The notes under the pieces: model-generated | The model's database searches: none | What the model was told of the DNA's origin: nothing | Seen by the model: the letters and a program-made list of their open reading frames with translations, nothing else | Assembly: GCA_963740355.1 (NCBI GenBank) | Contig: CAVUDW010000002.1 | Location: 2,048,001 to 2,112,000, forward strand | Origin: an uncultured Gemmatimonadaceae bacterium | GTDB taxonomy: Bacteria > Gemmatimonadota > Gemmatimonadetes > Gemmatimonadales > Gemmatimonadaceae | Direction of reading: 5' to 3' | DNA: 64,000 nucleotides | Translations under genes and position numbers: made by a program | Shown here: positions 18,110 to 22,584 of the stretch, in pieces | Position numbering within the stretch: position 1 is the first letter of the stretch | Layout of the letters: every line of letters begins with the position of its first letter

Positions 18110-18127
18110 TCGAGTTCATGAACTCGA
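18110..18127. promoter_or_regulatory. Perfect 18-bp palindrome TCGAGTTCATGAACTCGA, candidate activator binding site
   Basis: Exact palindrome surrounded by further TGAAC/GTTCA half-sites. The core GTTCATGAACTC recurs at 20673-20684. Confidence 0.55.
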
Positions 18128-18279
18128 TGGCGTTCACGGTCGGTTCATAAAGCGTGACTATATCACCATGCGGGCTTGCAGTTTCGCGTGGCAGGTTTGG
18201 TGGATGGTGCGCGTGTCGATGTGACCGCACACGTCTCCGTCCGTCCAGTAGGGAGACGTTAGGAATTGCTGATATTTCA

Positions 18280-18294
18280 TGGCCCGCAGTTTGC
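18280..18294 (+). promoter_or_regulatory. Sigma-54 (-24/-12) promoter candidate TGGCCCG-N4-TTGC
   Basis: GG and GC are 12 nt apart, matching TGGCACG-N4-TTGC; 80 nt upstream of ATG 18374. Confidence 0.6.
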
Positions 18295-18373
18295 GTAGCG
18301 CTGTGCGCGTATCGATCAGGCCGTGTATTGGATCGCTGCTCGAAGGAATACTTCACCACCTCGGGAGTTGTAC

Positions 18374-19051
18374 ATGATTGCAGGAGTGCTGGCGCTGATG
18401 CTGGTGACTGCGGATACGACGACGCGATATACGCCCGTCGATCTGGACACACTGTCGAGTGTCGTCGTCGCGGTCGAGAGCCTGCCGGCCGTTGCGCCGA
18501 TCGTGCTGGACGCCCCGCTGGTGCAGCACGCGCTGCCCGCCTACGACGCCACCCTGTACCAGCCCCGGCTCACCTGGGCGCAGCCTGACACCACGGTCAA
18601 GAAGAAGAAGCGGGTCCTGGTCGAGTACTCGGACTGGTATGGTCGCCGCCTCGCGATCCACCGCACGCTGACCTGGGCGATGATCCCGCTCTTCGCCGTG
18701 TCGTATTACACCGGCGAGCGCCTTGCCCGCGACGGTCGTGTCAACTCCCCGTATGCCGTCCGCGCACTGCATCCGTACGCGGCGACGGGTGCGGCGGCCG
18801 TCTTCGGCGTCAACACCGTCACCGGGGTCTGGAACCTCTGGGCGGGTCGGCACGATCCCGAGGGCCGGAAGCGGCGCTTCCTCCACTCGATCCTCTTCAT
18901 GGTGGCCGATGCAGGATTCGCCTACGCCGGCTCGATCGGTGAGCAGGCGCGCGACAACAGCGAGATCCGCGACAAGCACCGCACCATCGCCCTGTCGTCG
19001 ATGGGCGTCAGCTACGTCAGCATGATGATCATGCTCCTGGGGGGCAAGTAA
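18374..19051 (+). CDS. Membrane protein with four His-bearing hydrophobic helices (possible b-type cytochrome)
   Basis: GGGAG RBS before ATG 18374. Helices begin with LAIHRT, RALHPY, RFLHSI and RDKHRT. Confidence 0.65.
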   Translation: MIAGVLALMLVTADTTTRYTPVDLDTLSSVVVAVESLPAVAPIVLDAPLVQHALPAYDATLYQPRLTWAQPDTTVKKKKRVLVEYSDWYGRRLAIHRTLTWAMIPLFAVSYYTGERLARDGRVNSPYAVRALHPYAATGAAAVFGVNTVTGVWNLWAGRHDPEGRKRRFLHSILFMVADAGFAYAGSIGEQARDNSEIRDKHRTIALSSMGVSYVSMMIMLLGGK

Positions 19052-19548
19052 TGCCGGTTCTTGAGACACTGGTCACCCTGCTCGAGCCCTGGAACACGAT
19101 GTACGGCGACTCGACCGCCCTCTCGGTGACCCTCACGTTCGCGCATCTGGGGTCGATGATGGTAGGCGGTGGACTTGCCCTGGCCGCGGATCGCACGGTC
19201 CTCAAGGCGGGTACTCCCGCAACAGCCGAGGCGCGCCTCGCGCTCGCCGACGCCGTCGGTGACGTGCACCGCCCGGTCGTGATCGCCCTCGCCGTCTCGG
19301 CCATCAGCGGCTCCCTGCAGCTGGCGGCCGATCTCGAGGCGCTGGCCGTGAACAAGGTGATGTGGGTGAAGTTCGGGCTGCTGCTGATTCTGGCCATCAA
19401 CGGCGCCCTGATGTTACGGGATGAGAAGGCTGTTCGTCGTGAGGCAGGCGGAGCGAAGGCGTTCGGCGCCCTCCGGGTGCGTGCCATCACGAGTGTGGTA
19501 CTCTGGCTGGCAATTACGCTGGCCGGAGTCGGACTCATGCAAGGATGA
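19051..19548 (+). CDS. Four-TM membrane protein (DUF2214/CopD-like fold)
   Basis: TAATG overlap with the upstream gene; 'FAHLG', 'DVHRP', 'SAISG', 'WVKFGLL..L..NG' pattern. Confidence 0.7.
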   Translation: MPVLETLVTLLEPWNTMYGDSTALSVTLTFAHLGSMMVGGGLALAADRTVLKAGTPATAEARLALADAVGDVHRPVVIALAVSAISGSLQLAADLEALAVNKVMWVKFGLLLILAINGALMLRDEKAVRREAGGAKAFGALRVRAITSVVLWLAITLAGVGLMQG

Positions 19549-19559
19549 GGAGCACGAAG

Positions 19560-20081
19560 ATGAGCGCATCAGAACGCGACGCCGCGGACGACTGCAACAG
19601 CTGCACCCTGCACGATCGCCGTTCATTCCTGACCAAGACCCTCGCCGCGATCGCCGCCGCCAGCGTCCTGCTGCCAGGTGTCGTGAAGGCTGAGGAAATG
19701 GCAGGGTACGTGCTCTATCGTGCGGCGCGCCGGACCGATGGCACCGCCAAGTATCCGATCCCGGCCGCCGATGGCGCCACGATCGATGCCGAAAACGAAG
19801 TGATCATCGTGCGCACGGGCGGCAAGTGCATGGCATTTGCCCTCAGCTGCCCGCATCAGCGCGCGATGCTGAAGGTGAAGGGTGGCGACACCGCATTCCT
19901 CTGCCCGAAGCACAAGTCCGAGTACAAGATCGACGGCGAATACATTCGCGGCCGCGCCACGCGCAACATGGACCGTCGCGCGATCACGAAGGAAGGCGCC
20001 GAGCTGGTCGTCGATCTCGACTCGGTGATCAAGAGCGATGATGAAGCCGCAGCCTGGGCCGCGGCAGTCGTCAACGCCTGA
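19560..20081 (+). CDS. Tat-exported Rieske [2Fe-2S] domain protein (#1)
   Basis: GAGGAG RBS; DRRSFL Tat motif; CPHQ and CPKH ligand boxes. Confidence 0.9.
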   Translation: MSASERDAADDCNSCTLHDRRSFLTKTLAAIAAASVLLPGVVKAEEMAGYVLYRAARRTDGTAKYPIPAADGATIDAENEVIIVRTGGKCMAFALSCPHQRAMLKVKGGDTAFLCPKHKSEYKIDGEYIRGRATRNMDRRAITKEGAELVVDLDSVIKSDDEAAAWAAAVVNA

Positions 20082-20094
20082 CGCTGGCTGTACG

Positions 20095-20128
20095 ACGTCA
20101 CCGGCGCAGGGGCCGGTGACGTTCTTTC
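20095..20128 (+). terminator. Intrinsic terminator after Rieske #1
   Basis: acgtcaccggc/gccggtgacgt stem followed by TCTTT. Confidence 0.65.
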
Positions 20129-20615: not shown

Positions 20616-20629
20616 TCATGCCGCAGACC

Positions 20630-20667
20630 AAGGCGCCCCGCGACACGTACTGTCGCGGGGCGCCTTT
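20630..20667 (+). terminator. Intrinsic terminator after Rieske #2
   Basis: 16-bp stem aaggcgccccgcgaca/tgtcgcggggcgcctt. Confidence 0.7.
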
Positions 20668-20692
20668 CGCGTGTTCATGAACTCTGCCGCAA

Positions 20693-20708
20693 TGGCATGC
20701 TCGTTGCA
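20693..20708 (+). promoter_or_regulatory. Sigma-54 promoter candidate TGGCATG-N4-TTGCA
   Basis: Near-consensus -24/-12 element upstream of Rieske #3; GTTCATGAACTC lies just upstream at 20673. Confidence 0.65.
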
Positions 20709-20890
20709 CTGGTATATCAACGCAGTTGGCCTCCCATTGGGCTGACTTCGCCGAAGAAAAGTAACTTGGCAGTTCTACCGATTGACCGTTCGATAGCACG
20801 AAAATTCGCGGGCGACGGCGATGATGCCGGCGTACAAGCTGGTGGTTCAGGTCCTCGCGTTTTGCCCCCTTCATTCCATGAGGAGTCCAA

Positions 20891-21782
20891 ATGAAGCAGG
20901 AAGACGTGAAGCCGGAGCAGCACGACTGCAACGGGTGCGCGATCATCGATGCAGTGAAGGCAAAGGAGCAGGCGGAACTGGCGGAACTCTCGCGGCGGCA
21001 CTTCGTGTCGGTCGCGACGCTCTCCGCCATCGCACTCACGTTGACGGCCTGTGGCGGCGGTGATCTCTCCGCCGAGGACCAGGCATCGCTGACTGGTCCC
21101 GGCGCGACACCGACGCCGACGCCGACACCGACGCCGACACCGACGCCGACACCGACGCCGACGCCGACGCCGACGCCGACACCGACGCCGACACCGACGC
21201 CGACACCGACGCCGACACCGACGCCGACGCCGACACCGACGCCGACACCGACGCCGACGCCGACGCCGACACCGACGCCGACGCCGACACCGACGCCGAC
21301 ACCGACGCCGACGCCGACGCCGACACCGACGCCGACACCGACACCGACACCGACACCGACACCGACGCCGACACCGACGCCGACACCGACAGCCGACGCC
21401 GACGCCGACGCCGACGCCGACGCCGACGCCGACGCCGACGCCGACACCACCGGCCAATCCGCCCGTTGGAGCGAATCAGGTTGGAGTCACGATCGCGTCG
21501 TATCCAGCACTGGCGAACGTCGGCGGTGTGGCCAAGGTGAACGCCTCACCACCAGTGGCACTTGCTCGCACGGCTACTGGCTTCGTCGCCTACTCGCTCC
21601 GGTGTCCACATCAGGGCACGACCTGCACGATCGTTGGCACCACGTCGTGGAAGTGTCCGAACCACAACGCGACGTTCAACGCCGCAGGTACGTGGACCGG
21701 CGGGCAGAGCACGACCAACCTCGTGGCCCGTGGCGTCACGCCGAACTACAACAACACCTTCGTCGTCGTGAACCTCACGTGA
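20891..21782 (+). pseudogene. Tat-exported Rieske lipoprotein (#3) with a long Thr-Pro linker; +1 frameshift inside the repeat (true mutation or assembly error)
   Basis: GAGGAG RBS, SRRHFV, LTAC. The Rieske domain (CPHQ, CPNH, stop 21782) is in the +1 frame. One repeat unit at 21389-21395 is 7 nt (ACAGCCG). Confidence 0.85.
21107..21443 (+). repeat. Hexanucleotide microsatellite (ACRCCG)x56 encoding (Thr-Pro)n
   Basis: 337 nt = 56x6+1: 47 units, one 7-nt unit, then 8 units. Confidence 0.95.
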
Positions 21783-21809
21783 TGGCGGTGTAGGGGATTG
21801 AGAAGTGCC

Positions 21810-21845
21810 GACGGCCGCGTCTCTCACCGACGCGGCCGTCTTTTC
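21810..21845 (+). terminator. Intrinsic terminator after Rieske #3
   Basis: gacggccgcgtc/gacgcggccgtc stem followed by TTTT. Confidence 0.75.
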
Positions 21846-22002
21846 GTATGGGGGATGGGGCCAGCATCGGTGTCTTCTGCAGTAGCACAAGCCCTGTCGC
21901 TTCCTGGCCGGTGTAGGCTTCGATGAGAAGGTCGCGATGCCGCGACCTGTGAGGCCACCGCTCGCATGGCCAGTTTCTCGTGTATTAACGGTGGTGGAAT
22001 TC

Positions 22003-22584
22003 ATGACCTCAGATCACAGTGCACCGCACGAGCCCGACTGCGGCACCTGTCCGCTGGTGAAGCCTGATCCGGCAGCGAGTCACCTGGCTGAGGTATCGCG
22101 CCGGGACTTCGTGTCGGTCGCCTTGTTGTCGGCTATCGCCGCCACGCTCAGTGCCTGCGGTGGCGGTGATCTGTCCGCCGCTGACAAGCTGCTGGCGCCA
22201 GGCAACCCGGACACAACCAGCACACCCACCACGCCAACGACGCCCACGACCACCGGGAATCCAACGGTCGGTGCGAACCAGATCGGCGTCACGATCGCGA
22301 GCTACGCGGCGCTCGCCAACGTCGGGGGGATTGCACGCGTCAACAACTCGCCGCCGATCGCACTCGCGCGCACGGCCACGGGTTTCGTCGCCTATTCGTT
22401 GCGCTGCCCCCATGAAGGCACGACGGTGAGCGTGATCTCGGGGAGTTCGCTGCGATGCCCGAATCATGGTGCACTCTTCGCGTCCAGCGGCGGATGGAGC
22501 GGTGGCTATCGCACGTCGAGTCTCAGTGCGAGAGGTGTGACGTCGAATGCCGACAAGACGTTCGTGGTCGTGAGCCTGACCTGA
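22003..22584 (+). CDS. Tat-exported Rieske [2Fe-2S] lipoprotein (#4)
   Basis: SRRDFV, lipobox LSAC, short T/P linker, CPHE and CPNH; clear paralogue of #3. Confidence 0.9.
   Translation: MTSDHSAPHEPDCGTCPLVKPDPAASHLAEVSRRDFVSVALLSAIAATLSACGGGDLSAADKLLAPGNPDTTSTPTTPTTPTTTGNPTVGANQIGVTIASYAALANVGGIARVNNSPPIALARTATGFVAYSLRCPHEGTTVSVISGSSLRCPNHGALFASSGGWSGGYRTSSLSARGVTSNADKTFVVVSLT

What the first reader, a model, noticed from the sequence alone, without database searches (positions are those of the whole stretch)
18110..22584. Candidate undescribed electron-transfer system: cytochrome-b-like membrane protein, 4-TM partner and four Tat-exported Rieske proteins
Seen: two coupled membrane genes, then four tandem Rieske genes. 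All four have twin-Arg signals and three have lipoboxes. Hairpin terminators follow #1, #2 and #3. The ligand boxes are CxH...CxxH, without the disulfide Cys pair of bc1/b6f Rieskes (CxHLGC/CPCH). No petB/petC, arsenite oxidase or dioxygenase gene lies nearby. Established: disulfide-less Rieskes are generally low-potential ferredoxin types and usually cytoplasmic. Inference: a family of exported, membrane-tethered low-potential Fe-S carriers on linkers of different lengths, fed by a small membrane cytochrome.
Basis: partly seen in the sequence, partly recalled or inferred. Interest (0 to 1): 0.8.

Follow-up and report, generated by a model that had tools for sequence, protein, structure and literature searches.

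The report
Membrane four-histidine protein with exported Rieske proteins
A small gene cluster, conserved in two groups of soil bacteria and not yet characterised, pairs a probable haem-binding membrane protein with several iron-sulfur (Rieske) proteins sent to the outside of the cell membrane; it probably carries electrons there, but to an unknown target.

Summary
The genes are real, with one correction. The third Rieske gene is broken by a 1-base frameshift inside its Pro-Thr repeat in this assembly.

The conserved core is three genes:
- M1: a membrane protein with four helices, each carrying an invariant His.
- M2: a 4-helix membrane protein that weakly resembles CopD/DUF2214.
- R1: a Rieske protein with a Tat signal and no lipobox.

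Of 66 related loci with enough downstream DNA, 63 have a Rieske gene next to M1 and 56 also have M2. Nothing else is conserved beside them. The loci come from Gemmatimonadota (68 of 79) and Acidobacteriota, mostly Vicinamibacteria (8 of 79).

R2-R4 are Tat lipoproteins that resemble PetC3, on tethers of about 17, 140 and 41 residues. R3 and R4 occur only in close relatives.

- A Cys pair (CxxC) just before the twin-Arg is invariant in R1 and common in R2-type proteins.
- A palindrome, GTTCATGAACTC, lies upstream of M1 and R3.

R1 keeps the Ser/Tyr pair of bc1-type Rieske proteins, so "low potential" is not established. No haem binding, partner enzyme or direction of electron flow is shown.

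Best reading: an electron relay from the membrane to the periplasm, a new variant of known kinds.

The parts
18112..18125 (.). Perfect 14-bp palindrome GAGTTCATGAACTC about 250 nt upstream of M1; candidate operator
   Evidence: The 12-mer GTTCATGAACTC occurs only twice in the 5.4-Mb genome, both times in this cluster. The 10-mer core recurs near M1 or the extra Rieske genes in 7 of 79 related loci.
18374..19051 (+). M1: 225-aa membrane protein with an N-terminal hydrophobic segment, a variable linker and a four-helix bundle carrying invariant H96, H133, H171 and H202; putative dihaem cytochrome b
   Evidence: 545 homologues, none with a Pfam domain; invariant columns; AF2 helices 83-120, 127-160, 165-187, 196-222; DUF4079 in 15 of 18 members and DUF420 in 7 of 18, all sub-threshold.
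19051..19548 (+). M2: 165-aa 4-helix membrane protein distantly like CopD/DUF2214/DUF6644, with invariant H32, D47, H73, D94, K107 and N117; its start overlaps the M1 stop
   Evidence: DUF2214 17 of 20, DUF6644 14 of 20, UPF0093 9 of 20, CopD 7 of 20, all sub-threshold; pLDDT 92.9.
19560..20081 (+). R1: Rieske protein with CxxC, a twin-Arg signal, no lipobox and an AxA-like site; boxes CPHQRA...CPKHKSEY
   Evidence: (invariant C12, C15, R20, R21, C97, H99, C115, H118, S120, Y122 in 22 of 22 sequences).
20094..20123 (+). Terminator-like hairpin after R1
20145..20615 (+). R2: Tat lipoprotein Rieske (CSGC, SRRDFV, LAAC) with a tether of about 17 residues; boxes CTHQGT...CPNHGAEF
20630..20666 (+). 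16-bp GC-rich hairpin after R2
   Evidence: -39.8 kcal/mol, z -6.2.
20671..20684 (.). Second copy of GTTCATGAACTC, 208 nt upstream of R3
20891..21782 (+). R3: Tat lipoprotein Rieske (CNGC, SRRHFV, LTAC) with a Pro-Thr tether of about 140 residues. It is split by a 1-base frameshift at about 21391-21393. The Rieske domain (CPHQGT...CPNHNATF) lies in the frame of 21393-21782.
   Evidence: Orthologues are intact in L005 (256 aa), L006 (303 aa) and L019 (294 aa).
21105..21445 (+). Hexamer tandem repeat (56.7 copies) that encodes the Pro-Thr tether and contains the frameshift
21810..21840 (+). Terminator-like hairpin after R3
21997..22010 (.). Weaker copy of the palindrome (2 mismatches) over the R4 start codon
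22003..22584 (+). R4: Tat lipoprotein Rieske (CGTC, SRRDFV, LSAC) with a tether of about 41 residues; boxes CPHEGT...CPNHGALF. The ORF opens at 21937.

Best explanation
This is an uncharacterised redox module of the cell envelope.

M1 is proposed to be a small membrane cytochrome that binds two b-type haems. One haem would sit near each membrane face: H96 with H171, and H133 with H202. This is the arrangement in cytochrome b561-type proteins. M2, a CopD/DUF2214-like four-helix protein translated together with M1, would form the membrane complex with it. M2 may supply a quinol, metal or further haem site.

Electrons from menaquinol or a cytoplasmic donor would cross the membrane through M1 and reduce R1. 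R1 is a Rieske [2Fe-2S] protein exported already folded by the Tat pathway and probably released into the periplasm by signal peptidase I. The lipid-anchored paralogues R2-R4 would be further carriers held at different distances from the membrane. They would deliver electrons to an acceptor that is not encoded nearby.

The conserved Cys pair ahead of the twin-Arg is proposed to act in the cytoplasm, before or during export.

Shown: the genes, the conserved residues, the conserved gene order and the signal motifs. Inferred: haem binding, complex formation, direction of electron flow and the acceptor.
For: Conserved linkage.
- All 79 related loci hold M1.
- Of the 66 with at least 1300 nt downstream, 63 have one or more same-strand Rieske genes, 56 have M2 plus a Rieske gene, and 40 have two or more Rieske genes.
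- Clustering all ORFs found no other family in more than 16 of the 79 loci.
- Stop/start overlaps M1-M2 and M2-R1 are seen in the window and in many loci.

M1.
- Invariant H96, H133, H171 and H202, flanked by invariant Arg (R92, R130, R168, R199), in 18 sequences down to 50% identity.
- Each His lies at the start of one of four long predicted helices.
- Weak hits go to DUF4079 (15 of 18 members), DUF420 (7 of 18) and PepSY_TM (1 of 18). I recall all three as members of Pfam's two-haem cytochrome clan.

M2. Invariant His, Asp, Lys and Asn inside the helices and weak CopD-superfamily hits.

Rieske proteins.
- Domains score above the Pfam cut-off.
- Twin-Arg motifs are present throughout.
- A lipobox is present in 48 of 49 R2-type ORFs and 1 of 65 R1-type ORFs.

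Not the housekeeping complex. A canonical Rieske (CPHLGC...CPCHGS), cytochrome b and cytochrome c lie elsewhere in the genome.

Shared regulation. The palindrome sits upstream of M1, upstream of R3 and at the R4 start.

Direction of flow (inference). Rieske clusters of about +100 to +300 mV can be reduced by menaquinol through b haems, but they could not reduce menaquinone.
Against: - No experiment or model shows haem in M1.
- Fold searches gave only generic four-helix bundles for M1 and M2, with top matches at Z 14-15 to designed proteins.
- Every Pfam hit for M1 and M2 is below the curated cut-off.
- M1's topology is ambiguous. The positive-inside rule puts the linker in the cytoplasm, while some homologues begin with Sec-like signal peptides.
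- M2 was not detected by phmmer in 10 of the 66 loci, so it may not be essential.
- Three loci have M1 alone.
- No acceptor enzyme is linked.
- The module is patchy: 91 of 301 sampled genomes of the phylum.
Confidence: 0.45

Rival explanations
1. The module handles a metal such as Cu, Fe, Ni or Co. M2 would be a CopD-like metal permease. [quoted passage not shown] The Rieske proteins would mediate electrons for that reduction.
For: - M2's only family signals are CopD-superfamily ones.
- M1's weak hits go to families I recall as including metal reductases.
- An R1-like paralogue elsewhere in the genome (C3:369028-369636) lies directly upstream of DUF4198 and HupE/UreJ_2 genes, which are typical Ni/Co uptake genes.
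Against: - All CopD-type hits are sub-threshold.
- No CopC, PCuAC or other metal-binding protein is conserved next to the module.
- The R1-like paralogue lacks the CxxC and is a long branch in the tree.
- Its neighbourhood was examined in this one genome only.
Confidence: 0.2
2. The module supplies electrons to the clade II nitrous-oxide reductase NosZ, as the Rieske and cytochrome b genes drawn in some clade II nos clusters are thought to do.
For: - The genome has a clade II nosZ (918 bits).
- A figure legend in PMC13122619 labels Rieske, b-type cytochrome and transmembrane genes in the nos clusters it compares (passage seen).
- In one sampled family, M1 and nosZ co-occur more often than expected: 34, 13, 33 and 45 genomes (both, M1 only, nosZ only, neither), odds ratio 3.6.
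Against: - nosZ is on another contig, and no Rieske hit lies within about 300 kb of it.
- 33 of 88 M1-positive genomes in the two families lack nosZ, and 45 nosZ-positive genomes lack M1.
- There is no association in the window's own family: 21, 20, 12 and 17 genomes, p 0.47.
- Related genomes are not independent, so the one positive test overstates the link.
Confidence: 0.1
3. The module is a minimal Rieske/cytochrome b quinol oxidase. M1, with or without M2, would form a Qo-like site with R1 and split the two electrons of quinol between R1 and the haems. This would be a functional analogue of bc1/b6f built from unrelated membrane subunits.
For: - The cofactor set would be the same: two b haems plus a Rieske cluster.
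- R1 keeps the Ser/Tyr pair of quinol-oxidising Rieske proteins.
- The three genes are tightly coupled.
Against: - M1 has one His on each of four helices, not two His on each of two helices as in cytochrome b (the cytochrome b pattern is recalled).
- R1 appears to have a cleavable signal rather than the uncleaved anchor of complex-bound Rieske proteins (substrate classes in PMC13673990, passages).
- R1 has no disulfide (0 of 65).
- No cytochrome c or other acceptor subunit is linked.
Confidence: 0.1
4. There is no shared function. The genes are neighbours by descent only, and the Rieske proteins work with unrelated partners.
For: R2, R3 and R4 each have their own terminator and probably their own promoter. 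Other family members lie elsewhere in the genome.
Against: - M1 and a Rieske gene are adjacent in 63 of 66 loci across two phyla, down to about 36-40% identity.
- Coding regions overlap.
- A palindrome is shared between the transcription units.
Confidence: 0.03

Closest known systems
PetC3-type Rieske lipoproteins of cyanobacteria (Synechocystis Sll1182, PDB 5cxm)
   Same: - A small Rieske domain of about 110 residues.
- A lipid anchor on an N-terminal Cys at the periplasmic face of the plasma membrane.
- Not part of a bc-type complex.
- The same HGAEF pattern after the second His ligand (Ala and Phe in place of Ser and Tyr).
- Function unresolved.
Sequence match of R2 to 5cxm: E 3.5e-5. Properties are taken from passages of PMC10172866 and PMC12341915.
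   Different: - R2-R4 lack the disulfide Cys pair that the aligned 5cxm residues show (CTH..C / CPCH). 8 of 49 R2-type relatives do have it.
- R2-R4 carry a CxxC before the twin-Arg.
- They are linked to M1/M2 genes.
- Tether lengths differ.
I could not check whether PetC3 genes sit next to DUF4079-like genes.
Rieske/cytochrome b complexes (bc1, b6f and relatives)
   Same: The proposed cofactor set of two b haems and one Rieske cluster; a Tat-dependent Rieske protein; R1 keeps the HxSxY Ser/Tyr pair.
   Different: - M1 is not a PF00033 cytochrome b. The genome's single copy is elsewhere, beside a canonical Rieske and a cytochrome c.
- The His pattern differs.
- There is no disulfide.
- R1 has an AxA-like cleavage site rather than an uncleaved anchor.
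Cytochrome b561 / DUF4079 / DUF420 / PepSY_TM two-haem membrane proteins, and MsrQ-MsrP as a working analogy
   Same: A four-helix core with one conserved His per helix, alternating between the two membrane faces. A membrane haem protein paired with a Tat-exported periplasmic redox partner, as in MsrQP (recalled, not from a call).
   Different: - The sequence similarity is sub-threshold: best E 0.0016, against a cut-off of 31.4 bits for DUF4079.
- The partner is a plain electron carrier, not an enzyme.
- The CopD-like M2 subunit has no counterpart.
Arsenite oxidase small subunit AioB
   Same: [quoted passage not shown] The 5nqd/4aay-type AioB also lacks the disulfide pair (CPHKGA / CPGH in the alignment). 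It is the best PDB match of R1 (E 0.00097).
   Different: There is no AioA-type molybdopterin subunit in the window, and the match covers only the cluster-binding part.
CopD / DUF2214 / DUF6644 / HemJ (UPF0093) four-helix membrane proteins
   Same: Similar size, four helices with conserved His, and weak profile hits in up to 17 of 20 family members. The protein atlas auto-names M2's own clusters 'copper resistance D'.
   Different: - All hits are below the cut-offs (15 bits against 34.1 for the window protein).
- No CopC partner is present.
- The genome has a true HemJ elsewhere (E 1e-46), and it does not align with M2 (hhalign probability 0.2%).

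Membership tests
Rieske [2Fe-2S] domain (PF00355) | Profile score above the curated cut-off | tested here: met
   35.4 bits (R1), 28.6 (R2), 26.1 (R3 C-terminal part) and 24.3 (R4), against a cut-off of 20.3.
Rieske [2Fe-2S] domain (PF00355) | Ligand boxes C-x-H ... C-x-x-H | tested here: met
   Present in all four window genes and in 114 of 116 related ORFs.
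bc1/b6f-type Rieske subunit | Second Cys pair forming the disulfide (CxHxGC / CPCH) | tested here: not met
   0 of 65 R1-type ORFs. None of the window's four genes has it. 8 of 49 R2-type relatives do.
bc1/b6f-type Rieske subunit | Encoded with a cytochrome b (PF00033) | tested here: not met
   the only PF00033 hit is at C3:129770; that gene sits beside the canonical Rieske and a cytochrome c.
bc1/b6f-type Rieske subunit | Ser and Tyr at +2 and +4 after the second His ligand | tested here: met
   R1 only: S120 and Y122 are invariant in 22 of 22 sequences. R2-R4 have Ala and Phe.
PetC3-type Rieske lipoprotein | Twin-Arg signal followed by a lipobox Cys | tested here: met
   Present in R2, R3 and R4 and in 48 of 49 R2-type ORFs in related loci. 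These are motif reads only; no predictor was available.
PetC3-type Rieske lipoprotein | Sequence relationship to 5cxm | tested here: inconclusive
   E 3.5e-5 for R2, but other Rieske classes score similarly or better (9rk4 at 1.2e-7; AioB at 2.6e-5).
Two-haem membrane cytochromes (b561 / DUF4079 / DUF420) | Four conserved His on four consecutive transmembrane helices | tested here: met
Two-haem membrane cytochromes (b561 / DUF4079 / DUF420) | Profile score above the curated cut-off | tested here: not met
   the window protein has no hit at E <= 1. DUF4079 matches 15 of 18 members with a best E of 0.0016; about 20 bits against a cut-off of 31.4.
Two-haem membrane cytochromes (b561 / DUF4079 / DUF420) | Binds two b haems | not testable with these tools
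CopD / DUF2214 superfamily | Profile score above the curated cut-off | tested here: not met
   15.0 bits against 34.1 for the window protein. Weak hits in 17 of 20 members.
Tat substrates | S/T-R-R-x-F-L/V motif between the n-region and a moderately hydrophobic h-region | tested here: met
   R20 and R21 are invariant. Export itself was not tested.
Arsenite oxidase (AioAB) | Adjacent molybdopterin catalytic subunit | tested here: not met
   none of the five PF00384 hits lies in C2:2048001-2112000.

The most novel reading that the evidence does not exclude
The cluster is a periplasmic electron-distribution network built only from Rieske proteins. A previously unrecognised membrane complex (a four-His dihaem protein plus a CopD-like protein) would reduce a soluble Rieske protein. 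That protein would pass electrons to lipid-anchored Rieske paralogues on tethers, some long enough (about 140 residues) to cross the periplasm. Export of all of them would be gated by a Cys-x-x-Cys thiol or metal switch built into the n-region of the Tat signal peptide. Such a cofactor checkpoint carried on the signal peptide is not described in the papers I could search.
Probability: 0.15. Interest if true: 0.85.

Novelty: new variant of a known kind. Interest (0 to 1): 0.6.

Why it matters
Gemmatimonadota and Vicinamibacteria are abundant soil bacteria whose respiration is poorly known.

- **Two unnamed families.** M1 and M2 have no Pfam or NCBIfam family. M1 has 626 representative clusters at E <= 0.001. 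They are tied to an exported Rieske protein across two phyla. This points to an electron path out of the membrane that bypasses the usual cytochrome c carriers.
- **A handle on PetC3.** The module gives a testable context for PetC3-like Rieske lipoproteins, whose function is still unresolved in cyanobacteria.
- **A possible export checkpoint.** The invariant Cys pair sits in a part of the Tat signal that is cleaved off in the lipoproteins and probably in R1. It may show how cells check Fe-S insertion before export.

Tried and rejected
- **Fold searches.** The M1 model (pLDDT 68 overall, 80-91 in the bundle) and the M2 model (pLDDT 92.9) were searched against the PDB with Foldseek and VIA-align wide. 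They returned only generic four-helix bundles. FdnI, CybB, NOX5 and STEAP1 appeared among the noise.
- **PDB sequence profiles.** M1 and M2 gave nothing below E 0.4.
- **M2 against the genome's own HemJ.** hhalign probability 0.2%.
- **Fusions.** A search for longer forms of M1 gave 2 proteins. Both look like an anti-sigma-factor ORF merged with M1. The longer representatives only have longer low-complexity linkers.
- **Paralogues.** M1 and M2 have none in the genome at E <= 10.
- **Rfam.** No match at E <= 1 over 17800-22700.
- **nosZ link.** Not obligatory.
- **Frameshift check with public reads.** No run holds this strain; shares were 0.11 or less and no RNA holder was listed. The contigs laid covered only the repeat, came from other organisms, and left 21465-21800 uncovered. 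They do not settle whether the frameshift is real.
- **Same-genus genome.** G286 has M1-M2-R1-R2 followed directly by the MOSC gene, so it has no R3 to compare.
- **Complex prediction.** The job (M1 + 2 haem + M2) was never accepted: the queue was full and then the tool was withdrawn.
- **Earlier findings of this scan.** Nothing was returned.
- **Papers.** Searches for DUF4079 (1 paper), DUF2214 (2), Rieske + Gemmatimonadota (14), Gemmatimonas + nosZ + Rieske (10), Rieske + lipoprotein + twin-arginine + periplasmic (28) and twin-arginine + signal peptide + CXXC + Rieske (6) showed nothing describing this module or the CxxC signal. This is judged from titles and abstracts in the listings.

Full report
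**What is in the window**

Six genes lie on the + strand between 18374 and 22584.
- M1 (18374-19051, 225 aa) and M2 (19051-19548, 165 aa) overlap by one base (TAATG).
- The R1 reading frame opens at 19545 and overlaps the M2 stop. A GAGGAG motif precedes the ATG at 19560, which I take as the start.
- R2 (20145-20615), R3 (from 20891) and R4 (22003-22584; the ORF opens at 21937) follow.
- Each of R1, R2 and R3 is followed by a stable hairpin: -24.3, -39.8 and about -28 kcal/mol. So M1-M2-R1 looks like one operon, and R2, R3 and R4 look like separate units.

Pfam finds a Rieske domain above its cut-off in all four Rieske genes. It finds nothing for M1 or M2, and NCBIfam agrees.

The flanking genes suggest no link:
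- upstream: a BNR/sortilin-repeat protein and an MFS transporter;
- downstream: a MOSC protein, a CtlX-like hydrolase and an ORF whose translation looks like glutamate dehydrogenase (not scanned).

**Correction to the observation**

R3 is frameshifted in the sequence as given.
- The signal peptide and the first part of its Pro-Thr repeat are in the frame of 20891.
- From about 21391-21393 the Pro-Thr repeat and the Rieske domain continue in another frame. Translating 21375-21785 gives ...PTPTPT...[19 protein letters not shown]...CPHQGT...CPNHNATF...NLT*.
- The break is a one-base difference inside a 56.7-copy hexamer array.
- Orthologues in three relatives are intact, at 256, 294 and 303 aa.
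- I could not tell a real pseudogene from an assembly error. No public run holds this strain, and the contigs laid covered only the repeat.

**Is the grouping more than chance?**

M1 has 545 homologues at E <= 0.001 in the 90%-identity collection. None has a Pfam domain, and those with a source name are called hypothetical protein. It has 626 representative clusters at 50% identity.

A scan of one genome per species returned 79 loci. By record label:
- 68 are Gemmatimonadota;
- 8 are Acidobacteriota, mostly Vicinamibacteria;
- 2 carry other labels, possibly from mis-binning;
- 1 is unlabelled.

Of the 66 loci with at least 1300 nt downstream of M1:
- 63 have at least one same-strand Rieske gene next to it;
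- 56 also have M2 by phmmer;
- 40 have two or more Rieske genes;
- 4 have three or more.

All-against-all clustering of ORFs found M1 in 79 loci, Rieske genes in 68 and M2 in 65. Apart from a shadow-ORF cluster, no other family was in more than 16 loci. The unit is therefore self-contained and its partner enzyme is not encoded beside it.

In a sample of 301 genomes of the phylum, 91 have M1. All 91 are in three families of one order (41 of 70, 47 of 125 and 2 of 3). None of the 102 genomes in the other nine families has it. The module is accessory and patchy. It is single-copy here.

**M1**

An alignment of 18 sequences down to 50% identity shows four invariant His: H96, H133, H171 and H202. 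Each is preceded by invariant Arg (R92, R130, R168, R199). Each sits at the start of one of four long helices in the AlphaFold model, where pLDDT is 80-91 in the bundle.

Successive helices cross the membrane in opposite directions. H96 and H171 therefore lie near one face, and H133 and H202 near the other. From memory, this is the ligand geometry of cytochrome b561, and Arg next to the ligands would suit haem propionates.

Family members give recurrent weak Pfam hits to DUF4079 (15 of 18), DUF420 (7 of 18) and PepSY_TM (1 of 18). All are below the cut-offs. Fold and PDB-profile searches returned only generic bundles.

The N-terminal hydrophobic segment and the variable linker of 60-190 residues are unexplained. 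The orientation of M1 in the membrane is ambiguous.

**M2**

M2 is confidently modelled as a four-helix bundle (pLDDT 92.9). Invariant H32, D47, H73, D94, K107 and N117 lie in or at the ends of its helices.

Its members give weak hits to DUF2214 (17 of 20), DUF6644 (14 of 20), UPF0093/HemJ (9 of 20) and CopD (7 of 20). The protein atlas auto-names its clusters as CopD.

M2 is not HemJ. A true HemJ is encoded elsewhere and does not align with M2.

**The Rieske proteins**

A quick tree separates two groups on one branch (SH-aLRT 94). The group labels came from best phmmer hits, so this test is partly circular.

*R1-type (66 rows)*
- They follow M1/M2 directly.
- They almost never have a lipobox (1 of 65) and never have the disulfide Cys pair (0 of 65).
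- They have an AxA-like site after the h-region.
- S120 and Y122, at +2 and +4 after the second His ligand, are invariant. Passages in PMC12954380 and PMC10172866 describe this Ser/Tyr pair as raising the Rieske potential.

*R2-type (53 rows)*
- They are lipoproteins (48 of 49) and mostly lack the disulfide (41 of 49).
- In the window they carry HGAEF, HNATF or HGALF. This is the PetC3 pattern, and PetC3 has an Em of +135 mV (PMC10172866, passages).
- R3 and R4 belong to a nine-row clade found only in the window and five close relatives. The same-genus genome has only R1 and R2.
- Tethers between the lipid Cys and the domain are about 17 residues (R2), 140 (R3) and 41 (R4).
- In three loci the R2-type protein is about 710 aa with two Rieske domains.

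The genome holds two more family members elsewhere:
- a lipoprotein with CxxC at C3:2457679;
- an R1-like protein without CxxC at C3:369028, next to DUF4198 and HupE/UreJ_2 genes.

A canonical Rieske (CPHLGC...CPCHGS) with cytochrome b and cytochrome c is at C3:128702-130309.

*A Cys pair before the twin-Arg.* It is invariant in 22 of 22 aligned R1 orthologues down to 36% identity. As strict CxxC it occurs in 62 of 65 R1-type and 39 of 49 R2-type ORFs. Most exceptions have CxxxC-like variants.

Among real genes of this genome, the combination of CxxC, RR and a hydrophobic stretch is found only in five Rieske genes. This part of the signal is removed in the lipoproteins and probably in R1. Its conservation therefore points to a role before or during export.

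I found no description of it in the Tat review PMC13673990 (passages for Rieske, n-region and cysteine) or in the searches listed under Tried and rejected.

*A palindrome.* GTTCATGAACTC occurs only twice in the genome: 250 nt upstream of M1 and 208 nt upstream of R3. Weaker copies lie at 18078 and over the R4 start. In the window there are 13 matches with up to 2 mismatches, against 3.4 expected, and 0 of 100 shuffles reached 13. The 10-mer core recurs near M1 or the extra Rieske genes in 7 of 79 loci, five of them close relatives. This suggests a shared regulator.

**How it most likely works**

The evidence best fits an electron relay from the membrane to the periplasm:
- two haems in M1 span the membrane;
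- M2 is its stable partner;
- R1 is the dedicated soluble acceptor;
- the lipoprotein paralogues are further carriers at set distances from the membrane.

The direction, from quinol or the cytoplasm outward, is inferred from thermodynamics only. Rieske clusters are far more positive than menaquinone. Haem binding, complex formation and the acceptor are all untested. The complex prediction I planned could not be run.

Rival readings are given with their evidence in the Rival explanations section: metal reduction and uptake, electron supply to clade II NosZ, and a minimal Qo-type quinol oxidase. NosZ is in the genome but unlinked, and 33 of 88 M1-positive genomes in the two families lack it.

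**Comparison and verdict**

The Rieske domains are ordinary members of PF00355. R2-R4 work like PetC3-type lipoproteins and resemble them, but they lack PetC3's disulfide. R1 is not a bc1/b6f subunit: it has no disulfide, no adjacent cytochrome b and probably a cleaved signal.

M1 and M2 fail the curated thresholds of every family tested. They can be called b561/DUF4079-like and CopD/DUF2214-like only by pattern and weak profile hits.

The combination, the Cys-pair signal and the tethered paralogue set are not described in what I could search. I rate it a new variant of known kinds and moderately to highly interesting. Its function is open.

Noticed in passing
window 18112-18125, 20671-20684, 21997-22010, 18078-18089: The palindrome GTTCATGAACTC lies upstream of M1 and R3, with weaker copies at the R4 start and at 18078. 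The perfect 12-mer occurs nowhere else in the genome. It is a candidate operator for an unknown regulator.
   Followed up: partly
G000 C3:369028-369636 (locus L082:8029-8637, - strand) and neighbours: An R1-like Rieske protein without the CxxC is preceded by a LuxR-type regulator gene. It is followed by DUF4198, HupE/UreJ_2 and an unknown membrane protein, which is a Ni/Co-uptake-like set.
   Followed up: partly
G000 C3:2457679-2458170 (locus L083:7680-8171): A fifth Rieske lipoprotein with CxxC and a Tat signal, of the R2 type, stands alone between S9 peptidase genes and unknown genes.
   Followed up: no
loci L029:8041-10179, L031:8042-10180, L040:5638-7770: In three relatives the R2-type gene encodes a lipoprotein of about 710 aa with two Rieske domains. 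They are separated by about 450 residues that give faint Ig/E-set-like hits.
   Followed up: partly
loci L042, L044, L056, L057, L060, L068, L069, L072: 8 of 49 R2-type orthologues carry the full disulfide pattern (CxHxxC / CPCH), while the rest do not. The disulfide has therefore been gained or lost within this one family.
   Followed up: partly
window 20602-21457, - strand: Long open frames (246 and 282 aa) of Gly-Val and Arg-Cys repeats lie antisense to the Pro-Thr repeat. They are shadow ORFs of the repeat, not genes.
   Followed up: no
G000 C3:128702-132231 (locus L085:7174-11231): The housekeeping Rieske/cytochrome b/cytochrome c genes are preceded by a 585-aa protein with Pyr_redox_2 and 4Fe-4S ferredoxin domains. 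This is an unusual neighbour for a bc-type complex.
   Followed up: no
proteins P0390 and P0391: In two metagenome contigs, an anti-sigma-factor-like N-terminus (HxxxCxxC zinc-finger motif plus a transmembrane segment) is called in one ORF with M1. This is probably two adjacent genes merged, and it hints at ECF-sigma control in those organisms.
   Followed up: no
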